From: Candidatus Eiseniibacteriota bacterium
Lineage (GTDB): Bacteria; Eisenbacteria; RBG-16-71-46; SZUA-252
Assembly (NCBI GenBank): GCA_036505295.1
Contig: DASXTQ010000019.1
Location: 4,446 to 68,445, forward strand
Length of the DNA: 64,000 nt
Direction of reading: 5' to 3'
The translations under genes were made by a program, and so were the position numbers. The notes under the pieces are model-generated. The model was not told where the DNA came from and searched no databases. It saw nothing but the letters and a program-made list of their open reading frames with translations. Below, one piece after another: positions 54,053-63,945 of this stretch. Each line of letters starts with the position of its first letter. Position 1 is the stretch's first letter.

Positions 54053-54204
54053 GTCGGCCAGGGCCGCGGTCCGGTCACGATCTGGCCACCATTGGGAGTG
54101 TCAGCGGCCGCCTCTTGGGGAAACCATGATTTCAACTGTGTCGGTCAGCGTATTTGGATATTCAGGTCCGCCCAACTGTAGTTCGCCAGACAGACGCAGG
54201 GTGC

Positions 54205-54567
54205 ATGGCTAACCGGCGTCTAAGCGCGACAGAGGTGGCGGAGATCTTTCGTCCTATTCTCGAAGAGGTTCGTGCAAAGCTCCGTGGCACTAGCCGCGGT
54301 GACGAAGCCCTACACTGGGCGCTCCGGCGGAAGCTCACCAAGGAGTTGATGTACGACGAGCGCGGCAAGCCGCTGCACCGCGTGAAGCTCAAGGCTCTCA
54401 AGCGCGGAGAACAGGGCGGGAAGTGCGCGTTGTGCCACTGCGAACTGCCGGAAAGGAACGCCGTCCTCGATCGCCTTGAAGCTATGAAGGGATACACCGC
54501 CGACAACACGCGGCTTCTCTGTCCGGACTGCGATCATAAGGCTCAAGTCGAGCGCGGGTTTGCTTGA
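54205..54567 (+). CDS. Small HNH-motif protein
   Basis: C-terminus GKCALCHCELPERNAVLDRLEAMKGYTADNTRLLCPDCDHKAQ carries C-x2-C...H-N-like...C-x2-C. Confidence 0.55.
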   Translation: MANRRLSATEVAEIFRPILEEVRAKLRGTSRGDEALHWALRRKLTKELMYDERGKPLHRVKLKALKRGEQGGKCALCHCELPERNAVLDRLEAMKGYTADNTRLLCPDCDHKAQVERGFA

Positions 54568-54664: not shown

Positions 54665-55354
54665 ATGCCCACGTCGAATAGAGAGTTCATACCGAACCAG
54701 GTGTTCATAGGGCTCCCGTGGAAAAACGTCCGACCGAAGTACGATCGGATCGTCCCGGAGCTCGAGAAGAAATACCCGCTTTACTTCACCATCGTCGGGC
54801 GGGACGACGGGCAGGACGCCAGGGCCCTTTTCGAGGTAATCAAGTCGCGGATCGCGTCGTCGAGCTATGCCGTATTTGATGCGACCGCGGGCAACGCTAA
54901 CGTATCTCTCGAATACGGTTACGCAGAGGGAATCGAGGTGCCGCGGGCAATCTTTCTGAGCGCTCACAAGGCCGCGCAGAGGGTGTCAGCGGGCGACCCG
55001 ATCATCTCGGACCTAACCGGAATGCGAAGGGTGCAGTACAAGACGGAATCAACTCTCGCTGCCGAACTCCACAAGTTATGCCGGGATCACGACTACACGA
55101 AGCGATTCGAGAGAGCCCTGCGCAAGATCCAACGAAGGAAGACCAAAGGGGCGAAGAAACGCGGTAGGGCGCTGGCTCTCAAGGCGCTGAAGGCTCTCGG
55201 GGGTAAGGTCAGGGTACGCCGTGCCGAGCTCGTGCAGCACCTCCAGGCACAGAATTACTCCGAGAAAGAAATCGATGCGATGCTCAAGGGCCTCCATACA
55301 GCAGGAGTATTGAGGTGCACGGTAGGCAAGTACTCGGATGTGTATGTCGCCTAA
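54665..55354 (+). CDS. Nucleoside 2-deoxyribosyltransferase-like (NDT-fold) domain protein with C-terminal winged-helix-like region
   Basis: VFIGLPW...YPLYFTIVGRDDG and AVFDATAGNANVSLEYGYAEGIEVPRAIFL match the NDT family D.sGT.fE.GyA.a.gkPv active-site signature. The basic helical C-terminus is RALRKIQRRKTKGAKKRGRALALKAL... Confidence 0.55.
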   Translation: MPTSNREFIPNQVFIGLPWKNVRPKYDRIVPELEKKYPLYFTIVGRDDGQDARALFEVIKSRIASSSYAVFDATAGNANVSLEYGYAEGIEVPRAIFLSAHKAAQRVSAGDPIISDLTGMRRVQYKTESTLAAELHKLCRDHDYTKRFERALRKIQRRKTKGAKKRGRALALKALKALGGKVRVRRAELVQHLQAQNYSEKEIDAMLKGLHTAGVLRCTVGKYSDVYVA

Positions 55355-55456: not shown

Positions 55457-56116
55457 ATGCAGCTAATCATCTTTGACGTTGACGGCACGCTGACGCGCAG
55501 CACCTCGATTGATGCCACCTGCTACGCGCGTGCCGTGGCGGAACATCTCAGGATGCAGGTCAACACGGACTGGTCCATGTACCGCCATGCAACGGATGCC
55601 GGGATTCTAAGTGAGCTTCTCGAACGGCAAGGTATCCCTGAGACGCGACCCGATGTCGCAGCGGTCCGCGCGCGGTTTCTGGGATTGCTCTCCGCGGCCC
55701 TTACCTTGGACCCCACATTGTGCCGCGAAGTGCCCGGCGCTCGTGCTGCGATCGAATCCCTTCGAGAGGTCCCTGAATTTCAGCTCGCGATCGCCACTGG
55801 TGCTTGGGCGGACTCGGCTCGTTTGAAGCTTCGCCATGCTAGCGTAGGGATCGATCAGATCCCTCTCGCCTCGTCAGACGATTCACCTTCGCGTGAAAAG
55901 ATTCTCGAGATCGCCTTCGAGCGGGCGGCCGCCCGGTCGGGACAGCGACCTGACGCCGTCACCTATTTTGGCGATGCCCCGTGGGACGTATCCGCGGCCC
56001 ACTCATTGGGCTTCCGTTTCATCGGTATCGCGTGCGAAGGTGACATGGGTCAGCTCCGGTCAGCCGGAGCTTCGGTCATTCTTCCGGACTTCACCGATGA
56101 ACTCTTCGCGGGCTAA
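55457..56116 (+). CDS. HAD-superfamily hydrolase/phosphatase
   Basis: MQLIIFDVDGTLT (motif I DxDGT), motif IV FGDAPWDV. Confidence 0.8.
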   Translation: MQLIIFDVDGTLTRSTSIDATCYARAVAEHLRMQVNTDWSMYRHATDAGILSELLERQGIPETRPDVAAVRARFLGLLSAALTLDPTLCREVPGARAAIESLREVPEFQLAIATGAWADSARLKLRHASVGIDQIPLASSDDSPSREKILEIAFERAAARSGQRPDAVTYFGDAPWDVSAAHSLGFRFIGIACEGDMGQLRSAGASVILPDFTDELFAG

Positions 56117-56328: not shown

Positions 56329-57039
56329 ATGAACCCAGAGAGAGACACCCAAAGCTTCGAGGAATTCACTCCCGAGGAGCTTCTCGGCCCGCTAAACGAG
56401 GTCGAGAAGAAAAACGCTCCCCGGCGCCTCTTCATTGCAGGGGACCGAGGACTCCTTCACGGTGGGCCGCGCGTCTCCATCGTGGGCTCCAGGAAGGCCT
56501 CGGCAGGGGGGATTTCGGGGGCCCGCGGTCTCGCAAAGGGCCTCGTCGCTCGTGGTGCGGTCGTGGTGAGTGGCCTGGCCGAGGGGATCGACACGGCCGC
56601 CCACGAAGGAGCGATCGAAGCCGGGGGACGCACCATCGCGGTCTTGGGCACCCCCCTCGATGAGGCGTTTCCCGCGAAGAATCGAGCACTACAGGCGCTA
56701 ATCATGCGCGAGCACCTGGCGGTCTCTCAGTTCGCCTCCGGCGTCCCCTCGCAGCGGGGGAATTTCCCGATGCGAAACCGCACCATGGCGCTCCTCTCGG
56801 ATGCGACGGCCATCGTCGAGGCAGGGGAGGGTAGCGGGTCCCTTCACCAGGGTTGGGAAGCCCTCCGGCTCGGGCGGCCGCTTTTTCTGAGCGAGGCGCT
56901 GCTCGGAGACGCCTCGCTTTCGTGGCCGGGTGAAATGGAGCGCTACGGTGCGCAAGGTCTCGCCCTTGAGAACCTGGAGCTCCTCTTCGAGTTCCTTCCT
57001 GAGAGGGCACGTGGCGGGTCCCCCGAGCTTGCTTTCTGA
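56329..57039 (+). CDS. DprA/Smf-like (SLOG superfamily) Rossmann-fold protein
   Basis: VSIVGSRKASAGGISGARGLAKGLVARGAVVVSGLAEGIDTAAHEGAIEAGGRTIAVLGTPLDEAFPAKNRAL...RNRTMALLSDATAIVEAGEGSGSL matches the DprA core. It lacks the SAM/DML1 extensions of canonical DprA. Confidence 0.7.
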   Translation: MNPERDTQSFEEFTPEELLGPLNEVEKKNAPRRLFIAGDRGLLHGGPRVSIVGSRKASAGGISGARGLAKGLVARGAVVVSGLAEGIDTAAHEGAIEAGGRTIAVLGTPLDEAFPAKNRALQALIMREHLAVSQFASGVPSQRGNFPMRNRTMALLSDATAIVEAGEGSGSLHQGWEALRLGRPLFLSEALLGDASLSWPGEMERYGAQGLALENLELLFEFLPERARGGSPELAF

Positions 57040-57106
57040 GGTTCGGTTCGGCGCCTTCCTCGTTTACTCCCCCCGCGGTTCCTCCGAAGTCTCGAGGCGC
57101 TCGCGC

Positions 57107-57658
57107 GTGTGGCGTGATGCCATCAAATACGATCGGCCTCCTGGAATCGCTCATGCCGTCGAGCAGCTCTCGCACGAGTTCGCAAGCACGCAGCTAGGTG
57201 AGATCCTCGGGGCCGGAGTCACGCTCGTGCCGGCCCCCAAGAGTTCGCCGCTCGTCGAGGGTGCGCTCTGGCCGGCGAAGCGTATCGCTGACGAGCTCCT
57301 CGCGAGGGGTCTCGGAAGGGAAGTGATTCCGTGTGTTCGGCGGGCCGTCCGTGTCCCGAAGTCGGCGTTCGCCGCAGCGGGAGAAAGGCCGACCGCGAAG
57401 ACCCACCTCGAATCCTTGACGGCCGAGGGCGAGCTCGCGCGCCCGGCGCGCATAGCTGTGGTTGATGACGTGGTGACGAAGGGGGCGACACTCCTGGCCG
57501 TCGCTTCGCTTGTTCAGGACCTCTTCCCCGAGGCGGACGTGCGCGCGTTCGCGATGCTGCGGACCATGGGGCTTCAACCTGAGGTCGATCGGATTCTAGA
57601 GCCGTGCGTAGGAACGATTCATCTCACGGTGTGGGGAGAAGCCGACCGGCAGCCCTAA
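57107..57658 (+). CDS. Phosphoribosyltransferase-fold protein (ComF-like, no Zn-finger)
   Basis: RIAVVDDVVTKGATLLAV is the PRPP-binding motif. A GTG start at 57107 is inferred and is uncertain. Confidence 0.6.
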   Translation: MWRDAIKYDRPPGIAHAVEQLSHEFASTQLGEILGAGVTLVPAPKSSPLVEGALWPAKRIADELLARGLGREVIPCVRRAVRVPKSAFAAAGERPTAKTHLESLTAEGELARPARIAVVDDVVTKGATLLAVASLVQDLFPEADVRAFAMLRTMGLQPEVDRILEPCVGTIHLTVWGEADRQP

Positions 57659-57712
57659 AATGCCGAGAGGGTCGCAGGTCGTCGAGCGCTTCTGGTCGAG
57701 GGCAGGCCGCGA

Positions 57713-58657
57713 ATGAACCGGGCAGGGATTCTTCAGTTGCTCGAGCAGTTCCCCGAAAGGCACCTATCGGCACTTGCGTGGTTCGAGCAGCATGCGGGCC
57801 AGGAGGTTGCGTGGCCGAAGCCGCTGCCGGACGGGACCCTCCTGGCGGCGAAGGCGAAGGGTATTTACAAGCCCGCTTGGTCGAAGTACGCGCTCTCTGT
57901 GCGACAGTCTCTTGGCGGTCCCTATCCCGACCGCGAGATCGAGATGCGACCCGATGGGGGCTGGCGACTCGAGTACTTTCAAGAGGATCTCGATCCCGGA
58001 CGCCGTGATTCGCAGTTCACCAACGTTGGACTGATGGAGTGCTGGAAGGATGTCGTACCGGTGGGGGTCTTGGTTCAAAGTGTCGCCAGGCCGGGCCCTC
58101 GGTACCGCGTCTACGGCCTAGCGCTTGTGACGGGCTGGGACGGCGGGTACTTCTACCTTGAGGGCCTTGCCCGCGGGGATCGCGGCTGGTCTCTCAAGGT
58201 GGTGCCGACGGCGACGACCCGTGCGGATCTCCTCGCGGAGGACTTCGAGCCGACCTCGCTTGAGGACCGCCGGCGCGAGACGAACCGGATGATCGTCCTT
58301 CGTCAGGGTCAACAAGGCTTCCGTCGGGCGCTGCTCTTGGCTTACCAAGGGCGATGCGCAATTACAGGCTGCGATGGGGTGCAAGCCCTCGAGGCCGCGC
58401 ACATCGTACCCTACCGCGGGCTCGTGACGAACCACCCCACGAACGGACTTCTCCTTCGTGCCGACATCCACAACCTGTTCGACCTGGGACTGCTCGCCAT
58501 TGACCCGGCGAACCTCAAAGTGTTGTGGAGCAGCGAGCTTGATGGCACTTCCTACGTGCCGGTGTTGAGAGGGGCGACGGTCCGACGGCCGGTCGACTCG
58601 GGCCTGGCACCGAGCCAGGCTGCGCTGCGAATCCACCGGGAATGGGCTTGTCTATGA
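57713..58657 (+). CDS. HNH_2-family endonuclease with ~230-aa N-terminal putative recognition domain (candidate modification-dependent/Type IV restriction enzyme)
   Basis: C-terminus CAITGCDGVQALEAAHIVPYRG...NGLLLRADIHNLFDLGLLAID is HNH_2. The fold of the N-terminal domain is unassigned. Confidence 0.7.
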   Translation: MNRAGILQLLEQFPERHLSALAWFEQHAGQEVAWPKPLPDGTLLAAKAKGIYKPAWSKYALSVRQSLGGPYPDREIEMRPDGGWRLEYFQEDLDPGRRDSQFTNVGLMECWKDVVPVGVLVQSVARPGPRYRVYGLALVTGWDGGYFYLEGLARGDRGWSLKVVPTATTRADLLAEDFEPTSLEDRRRETNRMIVLRQGQQGFRRALLLAYQGRCAITGCDGVQALEAAHIVPYRGLVTNHPTNGLLLRADIHNLFDLGLLAIDPANLKVLWSSELDGTSYVPVLRGATVRRPVDSGLAPSQAALRIHREWACL

Positions 58658-58660
58658 CGG

Positions 58661-59128
58661 TTAGTGAGAGCATTTCCGCAACCGGGCTTTCGACGAGCAA
58701 ACTTGGCGGATGAGCGCTGAAGCCGCTGCTTCAGGGTCTCGCACGATGTCGGTCTCCCACAGGCGCGTCACCGTCCACCCGAGGTCGCGGAGCATTTTGG
58801 TCACCCGCCTATCGCGAGCACGGTTCGCTAGGATCTTGGGGATCCAATAGTAAGGATTGGAGCCACGCGCGAGCTTTCGCCGCCGCGAGGGCCATCGGTT
58901 GCCGTGCCAGAAGTCCCCGTCGCAGAACACAGCCACCTTGGCGGAGACGAACACGATGTCGGGGCGGCCGGGAAGCGCCTTCGCGTGAAGGCGGAAACGT
59001 GCCCCGAGGCGCCAGAGGGCCCTGCGGAGGAGAATCTCCTGGCGAGTGCCTCTCGCGACGTTCCGGCGCTTGAGGGCCGAGGCCCCCTGCGACGACGATA
59101 CGAAAGCAGCAAATGAAGGAACCTTCAC
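58661..59128 (-). CDS. vsr: Very-short-patch-repair endonuclease
   Basis: ...RRALWRLGARFRLHAKALPGRPDIVFVSAKVAVFCDGDFWHG...LGWTVTRLWE matches the Vsr family. Confidence 0.85.
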   Translation of the reverse strand: MKVPSFAAFVSSSQGASALKRRNVARGTRQEILLRRALWRLGARFRLHAKALPGRPDIVFVSAKVAVFCDGDFWHGNRWPSRRRKLARGSNPYYWIPKILANRARDRRVTKMLRDLGWTVTRLWETDIVRDPEAAASALIRQVCSSKARLRKCSH

Positions 59129-60150
59129 CGGTGTGGCCTCTCGTGCGTCGGAGGCAGGCTGGCCAGCAGCTGATCCTCGCTGCCGCGGATGAGATCCCGA
59201 GGCCTTACCGGCCGCGATGCTCCGAGGTCGGAGCGGAACCGCACGTCAGTCACCCCGAAAGGGGGCGCCTCTTGGAGGCTCGGCACATCCTCTGCGCGGA
59301 AGTAAGCGAGTGACCCGCGCGCGGCTTCGCGATCGAACCGCTCGCCGATTGCCGCACGAAAAGTCGAGCCGAGTGTCGCTGTGACGATCGACTCAGCTTT
59401 GAGCATCAACTCAGGCGAGGGAGCCAGCGTCGCGCGAAGCTCGGCGAGGAGATCCTCCACGGATGTGCCTCCGCCCGCCCGCTCCACCAACACGGAAGCG
59501 ATCAACGCACGAACTCCGGCCGGTGGACGGAGCTGGTCGAGCGAGAAATGGTGAACACGCTCCCCGCCGCTTGCGCTCTTCACCTCGACACGTGCCATGC
59601 GTGAGCTGAAGTCAAAGCGATCGTCGGTCGCAACATGCCAGGCGGTCACGAGGTCTGCAGATCGCGGGGATTCCGCGATGAGCAGCACCTCCGCCCACAG
59701 GCCCTGAACCGACTCCCGCGGTGGAGCCTGAAGGGCGCGAAACAACTCGGCCATCGTCTCGACGGCGGAACCTATCGACCCGGGGTGTGGCGGCGAGGGG
59801 CTCGCCGCGATCAGAGTCCCAGCGACGAGAAGAAAGTGGTCCTGCAGAATGGTGTCCACGCTCATACAGGAGAAGATCGTGAAGACACCTTCCAGGGTTG
59901 TGCCGTCAGGGTGTCGCACGCGACACGGCCGAGCGTGCTCGATCCGAATGTGTTCCAAGGCCAGCGGGGGCAGGGAACTGGTCGTCCCGTCGCTCTCAAG
60001 GAGCACAAGCGCATGGTTTCGAGAGTCACGGGCGACCCGGAATCCGGGGCGTCCGGGCACCTGGTGGGCCACGAGAACAGGAGAGTCCAGGGGAGAAGGA
60101 GGGGGACTCGGCAAGCTCGCAAACAGGGGGCGAAGGTCCAGCATAACCAC
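59125..60150 (-). CDS. PD-(D/E)xK nuclease-like protein (restriction endonuclease-fold)
   Basis: WHVATDDRFDFSSRMARVEVKSAS is a D...(E)VK catalytic signature. The gene is embedded in the Z1/GHKL operon and its stop overlaps the vsr start. Confidence 0.5.
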   Translation of the reverse strand: MVMLDLRPLFASLPSPPPSPLDSPVLVAHQVPGRPGFRVARDSRNHALVLLESDGTTSSLPPLALEHIRIEHARPCRVRHPDGTTLEGVFTIFSCMSVDTILQDHFLLVAGTLIAASPSPPHPGSIGSAVETMAELFRALQAPPRESVQGLWAEVLLIAESPRSADLVTAWHVATDDRFDFSSRMARVEVKSASGGERVHHFSLDQLRPPAGVRALIASVLVERAGGGTSVEDLLAELRATLAPSPELMLKAESIVTATLGSTFRAAIGERFDREAARGSLAYFRAEDVPSLQEAPPFGVTDVRFRSDLGASRPVRPRDLIRGSEDQLLASLPPTHERPHR

Positions 60151-62376
60151 TCACACAGGTGAGTCTGTCTGGACCACCCATTCCTCCGCCATAGCTCTCG
60201 GGACCCAGACCGCAAGCGCGGGGACCTCGCGAGCCACGACCTCGCCAGCGTCACTCGAGAGGGTCACCCAGTGGACCTGCACCGTGAGCATCTCGCGCAC
60301 GCAGATCTCACGGTCGCCGGGATATACGACGGGGCCCGTCCTCGGGTTCTTGCCTTGGAAGAGTTGGAGAATCTCGCCTCGGCCATTTAGGGAGCGATCG
60401 CGCTTCTGACCGCTGCTCATGATGAAGACAGTACATTGAGCGTCACGATTGCGGGCGAGGAAATCCTCCACTTGGAGCTGAAGACCGAGGTAGGGGTACT
60501 GGTCAAACTGACTTGTGACCATGAAAGGAACGAGCAGATCTTCGTAGGCACGGCGGAGAGGTATCGTGGCAACCAGGTGCCGCTGAATTGGCGTGCGGTC
60601 CGGGTGGCCGTCGTTCTCAGTCAGAGCGAGCGGGGCAATAAACCTTTGCACCACCCCGCGGTTGTTGAGCACGCCGTCGTCAGAATGATGGGGGGCTTTG
60701 GGCTCGAACCACTTGTCTGAGAAGCTGCCTTGCTCGTGGACGAGGTCAAGTACCTGAACCCGAGTAGGACGCAGTGCGCCGTCGAGGAAGAATCGCCGGC
60801 GCCAGTCCGAGAGAGGCAGGGACCGGTGCTCGAGATCCTCGAGTTGACGGCGGATGTCCTCCTCATGACGAACGTAGCGGCCGTAAACACGCAAAACATC
60901 TGCCTCCAGAAACACTCTGCAGTACCCGACGTAGGACAGCTTGTACCCGAGGAAGCGCGCCCGCTGCTGAATCGTGTCGGCATTGCCGACTCCCAAGGAC
61001 CTCGGCATATAGGTGACGGTGAGGCCCTCCACGGTGAATCCTCGGTCCATGGCCTGGCCCCCAACGAGGATGAACGGGTAGGCCTGCCGCCACTCGACCT
61101 GCGGTGTGGCGCCGGCTCTGGTATTGACTTCCTGAACAACAGTGCTTCTGAGCACCCGCGGGAGGGCGCGGCAGAGGTCCACAAAAGGGGGCAGGTCTGG
61201 AACGGTCCGGCTGAGGTCGTCGTTCGCGTGGGCAAAAACGGCGATTAGATCCTGCCTGTCCGGATCCACCTCCGGGAGGCTGAGAATGCGCTCCCACTCA
61301 CGCTTGGCTTGGCTCACCCAATGGAAGTACTCCCCGTGGGAGAGCACCTGCTGCGATGGGTGCACCAGCATTGTGCGGCTGCCCCAGGGAGGGCCGGGAA
61401 TGTGGCCAGCAGCCGCGCCGAGGAAAAACAACCGCATCGCGAAGAGCAGGGTTGGCGGAGGCTGATGGAGTGGGGCCAGCGGTGTGGGTATTTCGCTGAG
61501 AGGGATCTCCCGAATCTGGCCGGGGCGCTCGAGGAAGAGTTCGCGACCACCTATGTACTCGGGGCCGGACGTCAGGAGCTTCGCAAAGCGCGGCGATAGA
61601 ACGTCAATGAGGTTGATGAGAAGTGGCGCCTGCGGCGTTGCCGTGTACTGCAGGTATGAGTGGTGGGGGAGGGCTGCACGCAGGTCCAGCAGCTGTCTGT
61701 ATGTAGAGCTTTGCTCAGCTTGGCGAATCCGCGTATTGAGGCCCGCCTGGTCCGCCTCGTCGTCGATGATGAGAGCCGGGACTGCCTCGAGGTCAAGGGC
61801 CCTCAACAAGGCAATCAGGTTCGTCAGGTGCCGGTGGTTCTTCATGACGGTTACGAGGATCGTCTGACGCTCGGCAGCAGGGACTGTGTCGTCGTGCCAT
61901 TCGGCAAGACGCGCCCGCATTACCTGCAACTCCACGACACCCGGCCCGGGATTGGAGAAGAACTGCCACTGCCGGTCCGGGCGCGAATCGAGACGAAGGT
62001 CTCGTCGGAGGCGGTCGGTGGACTGACGAAAGAGGGGTTTGGAGACTCCTGTGATGACGATCACAAGGCGGTAGCCATTGTCCCTTGCCAAGGCGGTCAC
62101 TGTCGTGAACGACATTGTCTTTCCGCTCTGGATGTGACCGATGACAAGCCCGGTCTGAGAATCGCCCCGTTCGGCGGGGGGTGTGCACCTGCCGAGCACC
62201 GTCGCCGCCTCGCTAAGTAGGCGCTGCTTACTTTCTAGAGATAGCTGTGCGAGGTTGTGGAGAAGTTCACGCGTCTCGCGACCCTGCGTAGGCCGCCAGC
62301 GGCACCCCTGCGGGACATCCGGGGACAATTCGATTAGCTCCGCGGGCTCTAGGCTGGGCGTTACTGAATCATGCAT
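60151..62376 (-). CDS. Z1-domain P-loop ATPase (741 aa)
   Basis: Walker A GHIQSGKTMSFTT, Walker B/DEAD-like LIIDDEADQAG. Size and order match Z1-family proteins of methylase-associated defence cassettes. Confidence 0.7.
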   Translation of the reverse strand: MHDSVTPSLEPAELIELSPDVPQGCRWRPTQGRETRELLHNLAQLSLESKQRLLSEAATVLGRCTPPAERGDSQTGLVIGHIQSGKTMSFTTVTALARDNGYRLVIVITGVSKPLFRQSTDRLRRDLRLDSRPDRQWQFFSNPGPGVVELQVMRARLAEWHDDTVPAAERQTILVTVMKNHRHLTNLIALLRALDLEAVPALIIDDEADQAGLNTRIRQAEQSSTYRQLLDLRAALPHHSYLQYTATPQAPLLINLIDVLSPRFAKLLTSGPEYIGGRELFLERPGQIREIPLSEIPTPLAPLHQPPPTLLFAMRLFFLGAAAGHIPGPPWGSRTMLVHPSQQVLSHGEYFHWVSQAKREWERILSLPEVDPDRQDLIAVFAHANDDLSRTVPDLPPFVDLCRALPRVLRSTVVQEVNTRAGATPQVEWRQAYPFILVGGQAMDRGFTVEGLTVTYMPRSLGVGNADTIQQRARFLGYKLSYVGYCRVFLEADVLRVYGRYVRHEEDIRRQLEDLEHRSLPLSDWRRRFFLDGALRPTRVQVLDLVHEQGSFSDKWFEPKAPHHSDDGVLNNRGVVQRFIAPLALTENDGHPDRTPIQRHLVATIPLRRAYEDLLVPFMVTSQFDQYPYLGLQLQVEDFLARNRDAQCTVFIMSSGQKRDRSLNGRGEILQLFQGKNPRTGPVVYPGDREICVREMLTVQVHWVTLSSDAGEVVAREVPALAVWVPRAMAEEWVVQTDSPV

Positions 62377-62397
62377 TGGCTCACTCTGCTCCTATGG

Positions 62398-63945
62398 TCA
62401 GGATTCGGAAAGGGCATGACGCAGCAGCTCATTGACGTTCCGGCGGAAAGTCCCAGCCATCTGGACTCCACTGTCCCGCGCGGCTACCTCGGACAGCCCG
62501 ATAGCAGCGCCGAGGCGAATGAGAGGCTCGAGCTGCTCGGCATCGCTCCCGGCGAATCGCAGCATAAAGGGATGACTCAGAGCGACCCTGAGCCCCAGCC
62601 GGCGCCTGATCGGCTGCGAGGGCGTTCCGGGTAGCGCGGAAGTGTCGGAGATCACAAGCCACTCATCCACAGCGGGGTCGTTGGTCATCTCGAGGTGGAT
62701 CTCCCATGGCACGCCATTAAGCTCGACGTTGATCTGCCTGCGCGTGATGAGGGGGGCGATAGCGAGGGCGCCGGGAGGATCGGCTCGGTCCGGCGAGGCC
62801 TCCAACTCCTGAAGAACAGGGCCCGCGTGCTCCTCGAGGGCATGAGCCGTGCGCTCCGTCGCGGCCTCGGCGGCGGCTTGGATCTCGTTTCGAGCTCGAA
62901 GAGCCCGATACTCCTCGGCCTGCTCAAGAAGGGCCAGCGGCTCTTTGTCCAAGTGCTCCCGAAGAAGCTCAAGAAATGTCTCTTCGTTCTCATCCCATGC
63001 GAAGCCGTCCTTGGTGTGGGTGACGGCAAAGCCCTCCAGTTCAAGCTCTCCGAAGAGCCGCTGGTAGCGGTAGCTGTTGGGGCGTCCGAAGATCTGCTCC
63101 GGCCGGTAGCCTTCGTCGGCGCTACCCTGGATGAGGCGTCGACGACGAAAGAGGGCAAACCCGGCCTCCGAGGTGCTCGCACGCTCACGGAGGGCGGCAA
63201 AGCCGCGGACGCCGAGTCCACCTCCAAGATCGAAGTCGATCTCCTTCCGCCAGGTTACGGCAGGCCCGCTGAGGTCCGCGTAATGTGGAGCATGAAGTAT
63301 CCGCGGCTCCGAGTAGATGAGCAACTCCCCGTTAAAGGTGAGGCGAAGGGAGCCGTCGCGAGTGAACATTCGGTAGATCCCGGCCAGATGGTTCTTCACT
63401 TTTCCTAGCGTTCGGCCCTGGGGAACCCGGTAGAGCCCCTCCATGACGATCTCCGTGAAATGCAGTCCTGGCGGGGCTGGGCGGGAGTGGACGCTAAGCT
63501 CCTCAATGCTGTCGCGCACGATCGAGGAGATGTCGAACTCCACCGTCTTCTCGGTCGGCTCACCAAGGGCCGAGGTGCGGACTCGCCACCGGGGAGTAAA
63601 CCAGCAGGCTGCGCTTTTCATGCCCATGCCGAACTCAGAGAGGCCGGATCGATCGGCTGGAATCTCCGCAGGCCGGAATGCCCGCGGGTAGACAGCGTCT
63701 TCGATGCCGGCGGCATTATCTCTGACGATTAGACTGCCCGGCGGCTCAGGGTCGAGGGCGATCTCCACCGCCAGAATGGCCTGGTCCCCGCCAAGCTCAG
63801 CGCGCTTAGGCATGAAGCTCTGAAGGGCGTTGTCAACAAACTCGGCAAGGGCGAACCAGGGTTTATAGTTCAGGTGCCGAAGCACCGAAAGGACGGTAAC
63901 GCCCGGACGGATGTTGACTGTGGTTGGAGTAGTGGCCGTACTCAT
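62398..63945 (-). CDS. GHKL-type ATPase (HATPase_c_3, MutL/MORC-like)
   Basis: ALAEFVDNALQSF...LIVRDNAAGI...SEFGMGMKSA is the Bergerat-fold N-terminus. Confidence 0.8.
   Translation of the reverse strand: MSTATTPTTVNIRPGVTVLSVLRHLNYKPWFALAEFVDNALQSFMPKRAELGGDQAILAVEIALDPEPPGSLIVRDNAAGIEDAVYPRAFRPAEIPADRSGLSEFGMGMKSAACWFTPRWRVRTSALGEPTEKTVEFDISSIVRDSIEELSVHSRPAPPGLHFTEIVMEGLYRVPQGRTLGKVKNHLAGIYRMFTRDGSLRLTFNGELLIYSEPRILHAPHYADLSGPAVTWRKEIDFDLGGGLGVRGFAALRERASTSEAGFALFRRRRLIQGSADEGYRPEQIFGRPNSYRYQRLFGELELEGFAVTHTKDGFAWDENEETFLELLREHLDKEPLALLEQAEEYRALRARNEIQAAAEAATERTAHALEEHAGPVLQELEASPDRADPPGALAIAPLITRRQINVELNGVPWEIHLEMTNDPAVDEWLVISDTSALPGTPSQPIRRRLGLRVALSHPFMLRFAGSDAEQLEPLIRLGAAIGLSEVAARDSGVQMAGTFRRNVNELLRHALSES

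What the first reader, a model, noticed from the sequence alone, without database searches (positions are those of the whole stretch)
57713..58663. HNH_2 nuclease convergent on vsr with only 3 bp between stop codons
A 314-aa protein with a C-terminal HNH_2 catalytic domain (CAITGC...AAHIVPY...LLLRADIHNLFD) and a large unassigned N-terminal domain ends at 58657, while vsr ends at 58661 on the other strand. HNH_2 paired with an N-terminal reader domain is the architecture of modification-dependent (Type IV) restriction enzymes. A modified-cytosine-directed nuclease immediately abutting a 5mC-generating/repair cassette would be either an antagonistic pairing or a functionally linked read-out. The tail-to-tail stops imply no terminator between them.
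Basis: partly seen in the sequence, partly recalled or inferred. Interest (0 to 1): 0.55.

Follow-up and report, generated by a model that had tools for sequence, protein, structure and literature searches.

The report
Methylcytosine-reader nuclease beside a methylase cassette
The gene encodes a two-domain nuclease whose front half has the fold of proteins that read methylated cytosine. Relatives of this gene repeatedly sit next to cytosine-methylase and T:G-repair genes of anti-phage systems, a pairing already seen and left unexplained in one other nuclease family.

Summary
A 314-aa ORF (57713-58657, +) ends 3 bp from the stop codon of a convergent vsr gene (58661-59128, -).

The C-terminal half is an intact HNH_2 nuclease. 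H230, N244, H253 and D257 are invariant, the same pattern as in TagI. The N-terminal 156 residues have no significant Pfam match. They fold with high confidence into an SRA-like domain: every top structural match is a 5mC-flipping SRA domain or an SRA-type restriction enzyme, and TagI (SRA-HNH) is the best full-length match.

The same domain is fused elsewhere to McrB-like AAA_5, GmrSD, DUF3883, EVE+HNH and paraMORC modules, as expected of a modified-base reader. So it has the architecture of a Type IV, modification-dependent nuclease.

The adjacency to the Dcm/paraMORC/Z1/DUF4420/Vsr cassette is probably not chance. Dcm and Vsr are the commonest recurrent neighbours of this family, and Vsr is often replaced by a Mig-like glycosylase. 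The gene often lies in one operon with them, in MORC-Z1, DISARM-like and Druantia-like systems. About 15-45% of family members show this; the rest stand alone.

This parallels the unexplained MspJI/M.MspJI/V.MspJI association. Substrate specificity, and how self-cleavage is avoided, remain untested.

The parts
57713..58180 (+). N-terminal SRA-like reader domain (residues 1-156). It has two extra N-terminal helices followed by the SRA beta-barrel.
   Evidence: The AF2 domain model has pLDDT 91.7 and pTM 0.87. In Foldseek against the PDB, ranks 1-11 are SRA or SRA-like domains: KRYPTONITE, SUVH5 (TM 0.50-0.52), SUVH6, AspBHI, LpnPI and AbaSI. Pfam SAD_SRA appears only below threshold (2 of 21 members, best E 0.046). 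Invariant or near-invariant residues are K49, G50, I51, K53, P54, Y71, D73, W84, Y88, Q90, E91 and N104.
58181..58300 (+). Low-confidence linker (about residues 157-196).
   Evidence: pLDDT is 50-60 over residues 150-200. This region is variable in length and sequence in the family alignment.
58301..58657 (+). C-terminal HNH_2 (beta-beta-alpha-Me) nuclease domain with its stop codon.
   Evidence: Pfam HNH_2 E 1.5e-14. A profile match to the VcaM4I HNH domain (6yex) gives E 1.5e-11. Invariant residues are C215, E227, A228, H230, N244, G245, R249, D251, H253 and D257. These match TagI's Ala228/His229, Asn, His254 and Asp258 (PMC6212794).
58658..58660 (.). 3-bp spacer (cgg) between the two convergent stop codons.
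   Evidence: Read directly from the sequence.
58661..59128 (-). vsr, the very-short-patch T:G mismatch endonuclease (155 aa).
   Evidence: Pfam Vsr E 7.7e-21. TIGR00632 scores 118.3 bits, above its cutoff. It aligns to E. coli Vsr (1cw0) and keeps the LPGRPD and FWH motifs.
59125..60150 (-). DUF4420 predicted PD-(D/E)XK nuclease (341 aa).
   Evidence: Pfam DUF4420 E 9e-23. Weak NCBIfam MzaD match.
60151..62376 (-). Z1-domain superfamily-2 helicase-like protein (741 aa).
   Evidence: Pfam Z1 E 3.2e-28. PADLOC Helicase_II E 1.8e-43 and MzaC.
62398..63945 (-). GHKL ATPase of MORC/paraMORC type (HATPase_c_3, 515 aa).
   Evidence: Pfam HATPase_c_3 E 4.4e-10. The operon type is described in PMC2292703.
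63942..64000 (-). 3' end of the C5 cytosine methyltransferase gene (460 aa). The rest lies beyond the window end.
   Evidence: It is seen in full on the same contig (L002 9325-10707, Pfam DNA_methylase). Motifs FAGLGG, GFPCQ, ENV and QSRER are intact. It is 57-62% identical over its full length to the Dcm of L123, L064 and L009. The L123 Dcm's best PADLOC match is DruM.

Best explanation
The ORF encodes a two-domain, NTP-independent, modification-dependent (Type IV / IIM-like) endonuclease of the SRA-HNH kind.

**Proposed mechanism.** The N-terminal SRA-like domain is proposed to flip a modified cytosine out of the duplex into a pocket. The proposed pocket residues are Tyr71 and Tyr88 as stacking walls and Asp73 reading the Watson-Crick edge. 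This assignment is inferred from a hand alignment to UHRF1 and TagI. The C-terminal HNH_2 domain then cuts nearby DNA, probably as a dimer as in TagI. His230 would be the general base, Asn244 structural, and His253 and Asp257 the metal ligands.

**Relation to the cassette.** The gene is not a random neighbour of the cassette. This family is a recurrent, facultative third member of a 'writer / repairer / reader-nuclease' module: a C5 methyltransferase, a T:G-repair enzyme (Vsr or a Mig-like HhH-GPD glycosylase), and the SRA-HNH nuclease. The module is attached to several methylase-bearing anti-phage systems, here the paraMORC/Z1/DUF4420 system.

**Most likely logic (inferred).** The methylase-based system restricts unmodified invaders. 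The SRA-HNH enzyme restricts DNA that carries cytosine modifications other than the host's own pattern, for example 5hmC or fully or foreign-methylated phage DNA. The two genes travel together because only compatible pairs can coexist in one cell.

**Shown:** the fold, intact catalytic residues, the fusion partners and the recurrent linkage. **Inferred:** base flipping, the pocket residues, the substrate and the compatibility logic.
For: **Fold.**
- The full-length AF2 model (pLDDT 84) matches TagI 6GHS best (E 1.3e-7, 293 columns). VcaM4I, ScoMcrA, KYP/SUVH5/SUVH6 SRA domains and AspBHI follow.
- The N-domain model (pLDDT 91.7) matches only SRA-type domains in ranks 1-11.
- SAD_SRA is the top sub-threshold Pfam family.

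**Catalysis.**
- HNH_2 E 1.5e-14.
- H230, N244, H253 and D257 are invariant in 35 sequences and in 118-121 of 121 family members. They have the same pattern as TagI's essential His229, His254 and Asp258.

**Reader modularity.** The N-domain profile finds 454 clusters at E<=1e-10. The domain is fused to HNH_2, EVE+HNH_2, AAA_5 (McrB-like), GmrSD_N, NOV_C/DUF3883, T5orf172, HATPase_c_3 and NgoFVII-PLD+B3.

**Linkage.**
- Dcm and Vsr are the top two recurrent neighbour clusters in 67 species-level genome loci.
- In non-redundant loci, Dcm lies within 3 kb in 6 of 42 genome loci and within 2 kb in 5 of 11 metagenome loci. Of 6 further long contigs chosen by length, 3 show the association.
- Same-strand operons occur: L143 Dcm-HATPase-Z1-DUF4420-Mig-SRA-HNH, L123 DrmA-DrmB-DrmC-Dcm-Vsr-SRA-HNH, and L115 and L078 DruE-DruK-Dcm-Mig-SRA-HNH.
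- Convergent junctions with vsr occur in L020, L022 and L077, as in the window.
- Linked copies are intact in 38 of 41 loci. Most complete linked methylase ORFs keep PCQ and ENV.

**Precedent.** MspJI (SRA-like + PD-(D/E)XK) sits next to a C5 methylase and vsr. About half of its family does so. LpnPI coexists with an active GGNCC methylase (PMC2938202).
Against: - There are no biochemical data for any member of this clade.
- The SRA assignment rests on predicted structure. TM scores are only about 0.5. Sequence profiles do not reach significance against SRA.
- The pocket residue mapping is a hand alignment.
- About 80% of genome-derived family members have no Dcm, Vsr or Mig within 3 kb.
- The window protein's nearest relatives with long flanks (L003, L004) are solitary. 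The juxtaposition in this window could therefore be secondary.
- In the window the gene is on the opposite strand from the cassette.
- Published surveys found PUA-superfamily-HNH genes rarely near DNA methylases (<6%, PMC6765204). TagI's host appears to avoid conflict by lacking C5 methylases (PMC6212794). How this enzyme tolerates an apparently active neighbouring Dcm is unexplained.
This does not fit simple sequence-context co-adaptation.
Confidence: 0.62

Rival explanations
1. It is an independent Type IV enzyme that lies beside the cassette only because both sit in a defence island. The SRA-HNH nuclease has no functional or co-adaptive relation to the Dcm/Vsr cassette in this genome.
For: The gene is on the opposite strand. 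It is flanked on the other side by an unrelated Shosta-like pair (ShosA/ShosT). Most family members are solitary (36 of 42 genome loci). The closest relatives with long flanks (L003, L004) have no Dcm within 10 kb. Defence genes cluster in general.
Against: Dcm and Vsr are the two commonest recurrent neighbours across phyla. Distances are typically under 1.5 kb, and Dcm hits concentrate in the nearest 2.5 kb (4, 0, 1, 0 by distance bin). Many same-strand operons have 5-30 bp gaps or overlaps. The same cassette type carries the gene in an operon in L143, L018, L087, L131 and L154. The reader domain is fused to HATPase_c_3 in P0201.
Confidence: 0.22
2. It is the methylation-sensitive restriction subunit of a conventional M-V-R system. 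It would cut unmethylated target sites and be blocked by the linked Dcm's methylation, with the SRA-like domain sensing the unmethylated state.
For: Dcm-Vsr/Mig-nuclease triads look like ordinary Type II operons (L123, L078, L115). A PADLOC Type II HNH model gives a weak match (PDLC03546). MspJI was first annotated this way (PMC2938202).
Against: About 80% of members have no methylase nearby, which would be lethal for a methylation-blocked nuclease. The reader domain's other fusion partners are hallmark modification-dependent modules: McrB-like AAA_5, GmrSD, DUF3883 and EVE. The cassettes already carry their own nuclease candidates: DUF4420, DrmC PLD, DruK and Mrr_cat. All the closest structural relatives read modified cytosine.
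Confidence: 0.06
3. It is a repair or maintenance accessory rather than a restriction enzyme. The SRA-like domain would read hemi-methylated or 5mC-flanked sites, and the HNH domain would nick to assist T:G correction by Vsr or Mig. This would be a MutH-like strand-discrimination role, or a way of coupling reading to re-methylation.
For: The tightest neighbour is often the T:G-repair gene itself, with gaps of -16 to +30 bp. Vsr is displaced by a non-homologous Mig-like glycosylase while the SRA-HNH gene stays. SRA-HNH+Vsr or +Mig pairs occur with no Dcm within 5-10 kb (L006; the P0026 contig). The cassette contains a MutL-like GHKL ATPase (PMC2292703).
Against: Vsr and Mig need no such partner in characterised systems. 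Solitary copies are the majority. The domain's fusion partners are restriction modules, not repair modules. The loci are defence islands.
Confidence: 0.07

Closest known systems
SRA-HNH modification-dependent endonucleases (TagI, ScoA3IV/Sco5333, TbiR51I)
   Same: It has the same two-domain order, with an N-terminal SRA-type reader and a C-terminal HNH. TagI is the best full-length structural match. The unusual catalytic pattern is shared: Ala before the first His, and a metal-binding Asp four residues after the last His. The size is similar (314 against 285 aa).
   Different: Identity to TagI is only 19%. The reader domain is not recognised by Pfam SAD_SRA and has two extra N-terminal helices. 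The HNH belongs to HNH_2. TagI-type genes are reported as not linked to C5 methylases, and their hosts may lack them (PMC6212794, PMC6765204). This family is repeatedly linked to them.
MspJI family (MspJI, LpnPI, AspBHI), with M.MspJIP and V.MspJIP neighbours
   Same: It has an SRA-like N-terminal reader; AspBHI and LpnPI are among the structural matches. It shows the same puzzling, facultative neighbourhood of a C5 methylase, vsr and a helicase-like gene (PMC2938202).
   Different: The nuclease domain is HNH_2, not an Mrr-like PD-(D/E)XK domain. Here the methylases keep their catalytic motifs, whereas M.MspJI was inactive in the published tests. Here the module is embedded in MORC-Z1, DISARM-like and Druantia-like operons.
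VcaM4I / TspA15I EVE-HNH endonucleases
   Same: The HNH_2 domain is homologous (profile E 1.5e-11 to 6yex). The overall logic of a reader plus an HNH nuclease is the same.
   Different: Some relatives carry both (SRA-like+EVE+HNH_2: P0221 and P0237).
MORC/paraMORC-Z1 helicase-'novel RE' restriction-modification operons (Iyer et al. 2008) and the MZA system
   Same: The neighbouring cassette (Dcm, HATPase_c_3, Z1, DUF4420, Vsr) matches the 'third type' of operon described there. It gives weak MzaC and MzaD matches.
   Different: That description does not mention an SRA-like reader nuclease as a component (no 'SRA' or 'SAD' in the text). NCBIfam scores are far below the MzaC/MzaD cutoffs, so the cassette is not an MZA equivalog.

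Membership tests
SRA-HNH modification-dependent endonucleases (TagI type) | N-terminal domain with the SRA fold | tested here: met
   Foldseek gives TagI at E 1.3e-7. For the N-domain model, ranks 1-11 are SRA or SRA-like, with SUVH5 at TM 0.50-0.52 and probability 1.00. This is met at fold level only, on a predicted model.
SRA-HNH modification-dependent endonucleases (TagI type) | Sequence membership in Pfam SAD_SRA (PF02182) | tested here: not met
   There is no hit at E<=0.01. The best result is E 0.046 in 2 of 21 family members. hhalign against UHRF1 SRA gives probability 17%. A PDB profile search finds no SRA domain.
SRA-HNH modification-dependent endonucleases (TagI type) | C-terminal HNH domain with intact His-Asn-His and a metal-binding acidic residue | tested here: met
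   HNH_2 E 1.5e-14. H230, N244, H253 and D257 are invariant. The pattern equals TagI's His229, His254 and Asp258.
SRA-HNH modification-dependent endonucleases (TagI type) | Flipped-base pocket with two aromatic walls and a carboxylate | tested here: inconclusive
   Y71, D73 (D or E) and Y88 are invariant or near-invariant. They align by hand to UHRF1 Y466, D469 and Y478 and to TagI Y55, D58 and Y67. No coordinates were available to verify this.
SRA-HNH modification-dependent endonucleases (TagI type) | Cleavage that depends on 5mC or 5hmC | not testable with these tools
   This needs enzyme assays on C, 5mC, 5hmC and g5hmC substrates.
MspJI family | Mrr-like PD-(D/E)XK catalytic domain | tested here: not met
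   The C-terminal domain is HNH_2.
MspJI family | Frequent neighbourhood of a C5 methylase and vsr | tested here: met
   compared with PMC2938202.
Conventional Type II restriction endonuclease cognate to the Dcm | Obligatory adjacent methyltransferase in essentially all members | tested here: not met
   Only 6 of 42 non-redundant genome loci have a Dcm within 3 kb. Other methylase classes were not searched systematically in the genome and metagenome loci. One of the six extra contigs does carry a Type IIG methylase-endonuclease about 1.3 kb from the gene (P0026 contig).
Phosphorothioate-dependent SBD-HNH endonucleases (NCBIfam NF045808) | Whole-protein score above the curated cutoff, including the sulfur-binding domain | tested here: not met
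   It scores 39.4 bits against a cutoff of 180, and only the HNH part (residues 195-308) matches.
EVE-HNH (VcaM4I type) | N-terminal EVE domain | tested here: not met
   There is no EVE hit. Only residues 168-281 align to 6yex.

The most novel reading that the evidence does not exclude
The C5 methylase, the T:G-repair enzyme and the SRA-like reader nuclease form one functional unit. For example, it could distinguish fully, hemi- and un-methylated or mis-patterned DNA, and so license or restrain the restriction module. This would make it a bacterial analogue of eukaryotic SRA-methyltransferase coupling, rather than a separate Type IV enzyme. On this reading, SRA-like readers would be a missing self/non-self sensing component of methylase-bearing systems whose mechanisms are unclear (paraMORC-Z1-DUF4420, DISARM class 2-like, Druantia II/IV-like). 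The fusions of the domain to HATPase_c_3 and to an NgoFVII-type R protein are compatible with this reading but do not demonstrate it.
Probability: 0.13. Interest if true: 0.8.

Novelty: new variant of a known kind. Interest (0 to 1): 0.5.

Why it matters
SRA-HNH enzymes are known, and so is the odd habit of one SRA-type family (MspJI) of sitting next to a cytosine methylase and vsr. That habit has been unexplained since 2010.

This locus belongs to a second, large and uncharacterised family with a different nuclease domain and a divergent reader (454 clusters at 50% identity). It shows the same habit, and does so inside operons of MORC-Z1, DISARM-like and Druantia-like systems.

Two unrelated nuclease families converging on the same neighbourhood suggests a general rule: a 5mC writer, a deamination repair enzyme and a modified-cytosine reader-nuclease travel together.

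Working out how the nuclease spares its host's own methylation could explain how these defence systems combine. It could also yield new modification-specific enzymes for epigenomic mapping.

Tried and rejected
- **Sequence searches for the N-domain.** A single sequence and two profiles against PDB sequences gave only the VcaM4I HNH match or noise. Sequence methods therefore could not place the N-domain; structure prediction did.
- **NCBIfam 'PT-DNA_restrict' and PADLOC HNH hits.** These cover only the HNH half, so a phosphorothioate-reader assignment was rejected.
- **Link to the upstream Shosta-like pair.** ShosA-like and ShosT-like genes do not recur near family members; the only other case is one distant ShosA-like gene in L006. 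This link was rejected.
- **Plasmid collection.** Only 3 full-length matches were found, and most hits cover only the HNH domain. This was not informative.
- **Terminator and promoter scan of 57400-59400.** Nothing was found. A hairpin-rich fold of 58600-58720 (z = -2.8) lacks a U-tract and was not pursued.
- **Decay of methylase-linked copies.** This would signal conflict. It was rejected: 3 of 41 linked copies are disrupted, against 16 of 103 unlinked.
- **Inactive linked methylases, as for M.MspJI.** This was rejected for most loci, because the PCQ and ENV motifs are present.
- **Pocket or catalytic residues differing between linked and solitary copies.** No difference was found.
- **Literature searches.** Searches for DUF4420, Z1 or Druantia together with SRA or HNH found no prior description. 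The library is incomplete, so this is not proof of novelty.
Full report
**1. The observation**

The ORF at 57713-58657 (+) encodes 314 aa with the quoted motifs. Its TGA stop is at 58655-58657. The convergent vsr ORF (58661-59128, -) has its stop at 58661-58663, so exactly 3 bp separate the two stops. Pfam assigns HNH_2 to residues 215-264 (E 1.5e-14) and nothing to the N-terminal two-thirds. The neighbour passes the curated Vsr model (TIGR00632, 118 bits against a cutoff of 97.85) and aligns to E. coli Vsr.

The gene is real. More than 2,448 homologues were scored. The identical protein is on record from a Candidatus Eisenbacteria metagenome-assembled genome, and full-length relatives are 50-67% identical.

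**2. Surroundings**

On the minus strand, vsr is the last gene of an operon: C5 methyltransferase, HATPase_c_3 GHKL ATPase (62398-63945), Z1-domain helicase-like protein (60151-62376), DUF4420 predicted PD-(D/E)XK nuclease (59125-60150), then Vsr. Only the last ~59 bp of the methylase gene are in the window. It is complete on the same contig recovered from two samples (L001 and L002). It keeps motifs I, IV (GFPCQ), VI (ENV) and VIII, and aligns to M.HhaI. This cassette is the third operon type of MORC/paraMORC restriction-modification systems described by Iyer et al. 2008 (PMC2292703).

Upstream on the plus strand lie a DprA-like gene and a phosphoribosyltransferase-like gene. They match PADLOC ShosA (1e-63) and ShosT (9e-17). 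The region is a defence island.

**3. What the protein is**

*Structure of the full-length protein.* An AlphaFold2 model built from a 35-sequence alignment has mean pLDDT 84, with a disordered linker at about residues 150-200. Its best PDB match is TagI, the SRA-HNH modification-dependent endonuclease, aligned over 293 columns (E 1.3e-7). VcaM4I (EVE-HNH), ScoMcrA (SBD-SRA-HNH), the SRA domains of KRYPTONITE, SUVH5 and SUVH6 bound to methylated DNA, and AspBHI follow.

*Structure of the N-terminal domain.* A separate model of residues 1-156 has pLDDT 91.7 and pTM 0.87. It matches only SRA or SRA-like domains in ranks 1-11: SUVH5 at TM 0.50-0.52 over 150 columns, and also AspBHI, LpnPI and AbaSI.

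*Sequence methods.* These do not reach significance. SAD_SRA is merely the commonest sub-threshold Pfam family (2 of 21 members, best E 0.046). hhalign against UHRF1 aligns only the 'PV.V' strand. The N-domain is therefore a divergent SRA-like domain, placed by fold.

*Catalytic residues.* The nuclease half is intact. H230, N244, H253 and D257 are invariant in 35 sequences and are present in 118-121 of 121 non-identical family members. The pattern is Ala before the first His and Asp four residues after the last His, which is that of TagI's essential His229, His254 and Asp258 (PMC6212794).

*Pocket residues.* By hand alignment, the invariant Y71, D73 (D or E) and Y88 correspond to the two aromatic walls and the carboxylate of the SRA 5mC pocket (UHRF1 Y466, D469, Y478; TagI Y55, D58, Y67). 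This mapping is an inference. I could not inspect coordinates.

**4. Is the N-domain a modification reader?**

A profile of the N-domain, run against 1.84 billion representative proteins, finds 631 clusters at E<=1e-3 and 454 at E<=1e-10. Most are ~315-aa SRA-like+HNH_2 proteins. The same domain also occurs fused to:

- EVE+HNH_2 (P0221, P0237; probably also the 515-aa protein of L060, whose middle domain gave no Pfam match);
- a McrB-like AAA_5 module (P0152);
- GmrSD_N (P0206);
- NOV_C/DUF3883 (P0231);
- T5orf172 (P0235);
- HATPase_c_3 (P0201);
- an NgoFVII-type PLD+B3 restriction protein (P0269).

McrB, GmrSD, DUF3883 and EVE-HNH are the standard chassis of modification-dependent enzymes. 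This combinatorial pattern is what has been described for bacterial SRA domains (PMC4333417). It supports the Type IV reading and argues against a methylation-blocked Type II enzyme.

**5. Is the adjacency to the methylase/repair cassette meaningful?**

*Samples.* I fetched 67 species-level genome loci and 80 metagenome loci. I searched their six-frame ORFs with iteratively built HMMs seeded from the window's proteins.

*Commonest neighbours.* In an all-against-all clustering of neighbours within 6 kb, the two clusters present in the most genome loci are the C5 methylase (7 loci) and Vsr (5 loci). The loci are phylogenetically diverse: Acidobacteriota, Burkholderiales, Caulobacterales, Dehalococcoidia and Anaerolineales.

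*Displacement of Vsr.* In many loci Vsr is replaced by an HhH-GPD/Fe-S glycosylase of Mig type (Pfam; 21 loci). This is a non-homologous displacement by an enzyme family that also includes T:G-mismatch glycosylases.

*Frequencies.* After removing near-identical copies, Dcm lies within 3 kb in 6 of 42 genome loci (7 of 42 counting Vsr or Mig). It lies within 2 kb in 5 of 11 metagenome loci with enough flank. Dcm hits concentrate in the nearest 2.5 kb (4, 0, 1, 0 per 2.5-kb bin).

*Independent sample.* Six long contigs were chosen only by length and read with independent gene calls and precomputed Pfam. Three show the association:

- a Vsr overlapping the 3' end of the gene;
- DNA_methylase-GmrSD-SRA-HNH;
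- GmrSD_N-Z1-DUF4420-HhH-GPD-SRA-HNH.

*Arrangements.*

| Arrangement | Loci |
|---|---|
| Same-strand operon: Dcm-HATPase-Z1-DUF4420-Mig-SRA-HNH | L142/L143 |
| Same-strand operon: Dcm-Mig-SRA-HNH-HATPase-Z1-DUF4420 | L018 |
| Same-strand operon: Z1-DUF4420-...-Mig-Dcm-SRA-HNH, with about 10 bp between Dcm and the nuclease gene | L024 |
| Same-strand operon: Dcm-SRA-HNH-Z1-DUF4420 | L105/L106 |
| Convergent with vsr, as in the window | L020 (100 bp), L022 (19 bp), L077 (stop codons overlap) |
| Divergent | also seen |

*Variable restriction module.* The restriction module attached to the Dcm/repair/reader trio varies:

- paraMORC-Z1-DUF4420;
- GmrSD_N-Z1-DUF4420;
- a HATPase_c_3+Mrr_cat fusion (L020);
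- DrmA-DrmB-DrmC, DISARM-like (L123);
- DruE with DruK and/or DruF, Druantia II/IV-like (L009 and L115 by PADLOC; L113 by its helicase/MZB Pfam domains; L078 by matching gene layout only).

The window's Dcm is 57-62% identical over its full length, including the target-recognition region, to the Dcm of L123, L064 and L009. The L123 Dcm's best PADLOC match is DruM. At least three methylase lineages (GFPCQ, GPPCQ, SFPCQ) are involved.

*Tests for conflict.*

- Linked nuclease genes are intact in 38 of 41 loci, against 87 of 103 unlinked.
- Most complete linked methylase ORFs keep their catalytic motifs.
- Reader-pocket and catalytic residues do not differ between linked and solitary copies.

*Phylogeny.* On a neighbour-joining tree, linked copies are scattered but enriched in one large clade. 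The window's own small clade is otherwise solitary (L003, L004).

*Conclusion.* This family is a recurrent but facultative partner of C5-methylase/T:G-repair modules. The window shows one (convergent) version of a common theme. For this particular genome I cannot exclude that the juxtaposition is secondary.

**6. Mechanism**

*Shown:* an SRA-like fold; an intact HNH centre; reader-type domain modularity; recurrent, often operonic linkage to apparently active C5 methylases and T:G-repair genes.

*Inferred:* the SRA-like domain flips a modified cytosine into a Tyr/Tyr/Asp pocket. The HNH domain then cuts nearby without NTP hydrolysis, probably as a dimer as in TagI.

Co-expression with an active Dcm requires that the host's own methylated sites are not substrates. 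There are three possible routes:

- specificity for another modification (5hmC or similar);
- discrimination by sequence context, as argued for LpnPI with its GGNCC methylase (PMC2938202);
- a requirement for dense or differently spaced modified bases.

The conservation of the examined reader residues in both linked and solitary copies, against several methylase lineages, fits the first or third route somewhat better than site-by-site co-adaptation. This is an inference. An invariant Glu91 two residues after the stacking Tyr88 might contact the 5-substituent, but that is speculation.

The most economical biological logic is a two-pronged defence. The methylase-based system attacks unmodified invaders. 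Linkage would be maintained because only compatible pairs can be transferred together.

**7. Comparison with what is known**

*SRA-HNH enzymes.* TagI, ScoA3IV and TbiR51I are characterised 5mC/5hmC-dependent enzymes (PMC4333417, PMC6212794). This protein works like them on present evidence. However, it fails sequence membership of SAD_SRA, is only 19% identical to TagI, and belongs to a separate, uncharacterised clade.

*Genomic context.* Published surveys state that PUA-superfamily-HNH genes are rarely near DNA methylases (<6% within 3 kb, PMC6765204). TagI's host appears to lack C5 methylases. This family departs from that.

*MspJI.* The closest parallel in context is the MspJI family (SRA-like + PD-(D/E)XK). 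MspJI lies next to a C5 methylase, vsr and a putative helicase, and about half of its relatives are next to 5mC methylases. The authors called this association unusual and in need of investigation (PMC2938202).

*Prior description.* I found no paper describing an SRA-like nuclease as a component of DUF4420/Z1 or Druantia systems; DISARM was not searched on its own. The searchable library is incomplete.

**8. Verdict**

It is a new variant of a known kind: an SRA-HNH-type modification-dependent nuclease with a divergent reader domain. It shares with the MspJI family a recurrent and still unexplained association with cytosine methylase and T:G-repair genes, here extended to MORC-Z1, DISARM-like and Druantia-like operons.

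Interest is moderate. A specialist would not be surprised by the architecture. The convergent evidence for a writer/repairer/reader module, and the self-tolerance question it raises, are directly testable.

Noticed in passing
window 56329-57039 (+) and 56930-57658 (+): A DprA-like protein (PADLOC ShosA 1e-63; Pfam DNA_processg_A) and a phosphoribosyltransferase-like protein (PADLOC ShosT 9e-17) form a Shosta/PsyrTA-type defence pair. It ends 54 bp upstream of the SRA-HNH gene. The pairing does not recur in related loci.
   Followed up: partly
window 54154-54567 (+): A 137-aa ORF has a Cys-rich C-terminus (CALCHCELPERNAVLDRLEAMKGYTADNTRLLCPDCDHK) that looks like a small HNH or zinc-ribbon nuclease. 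It has no Pfam or PADLOC match.
   Followed up: no
window 54665-55354 (+): A 229-aa ORF has no Pfam or PADLOC match. It lies between the small Cys-rich ORF and a HAD hydrolase (55457-56116).
   Followed up: no
window 59125-63945 (-) and L001/L002: The Dcm/HATPase_c_3/Z1/DUF4420/Vsr cassette has tightly packed junctions. The starts and stops of vsr and DUF4420 (59125-59128) and of HATPase and dcm (63942-63945) overlap by 4 bp. On the contig it is preceded by a 61-aa ORF, a 642-aa protein without Pfam matches, and an HTH_17 gene. This suggests a mobile island.
   Followed up: partly
L018 9262-9996; L024 7922-8581; L115 5200-5985; L154 4250-4999 and others: In many related loci Vsr is replaced, in the same position, by an HhH-GPD/endonuclease III Fe-S glycosylase (Mig-like). 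This is a non-homologous displacement, consistent with the T:G-repair function itself being what is needed.
   Followed up: yes
L123 2-6960; L009 7940-20674; L115 3-6936: C5-methylase-bearing DISARM-like (DrmA, DrmB, DrmC) and Druantia II/IV-like (DruE, DruF, DruK) operons end with Dcm-(Vsr or Mig)-SRA-HNH.
   Followed up: yes
L006 9998-10948; contig of P0026: The SRA-HNH gene is paired directly with a Mig-like or Vsr gene, with no C5 methylase within 5-10 kb. This is not explained by the writer/repairer/reader model.
   Followed up: no
L060 8456-11530: A 515-aa protein with the SRA-like domain, a middle domain that gave no Pfam match, and HNH_2 lies directly downstream of a CBASS-like pair (SMODS nucleotidyltransferase and Cap15 effector). 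A Dcm-Vsr-DUF6339 set lies 6 kb upstream.
   Followed up: partly
L154 1-557; L122 9058-10911: In some Z1-DUF4420 cassettes a GmrSD_N (DUF262) protein occupies the position of the GHKL ATPase.
   Followed up: no
L058, L059, L061, L062, L066, L131, L018: Several loci carry truncated, frameshifted or stop-containing copies, or SRA-only remnants. Some of these lie next to Druantia-like helicases whose methylase is absent. Some may be assembly errors in long-read MAGs.
   Followed up: partly
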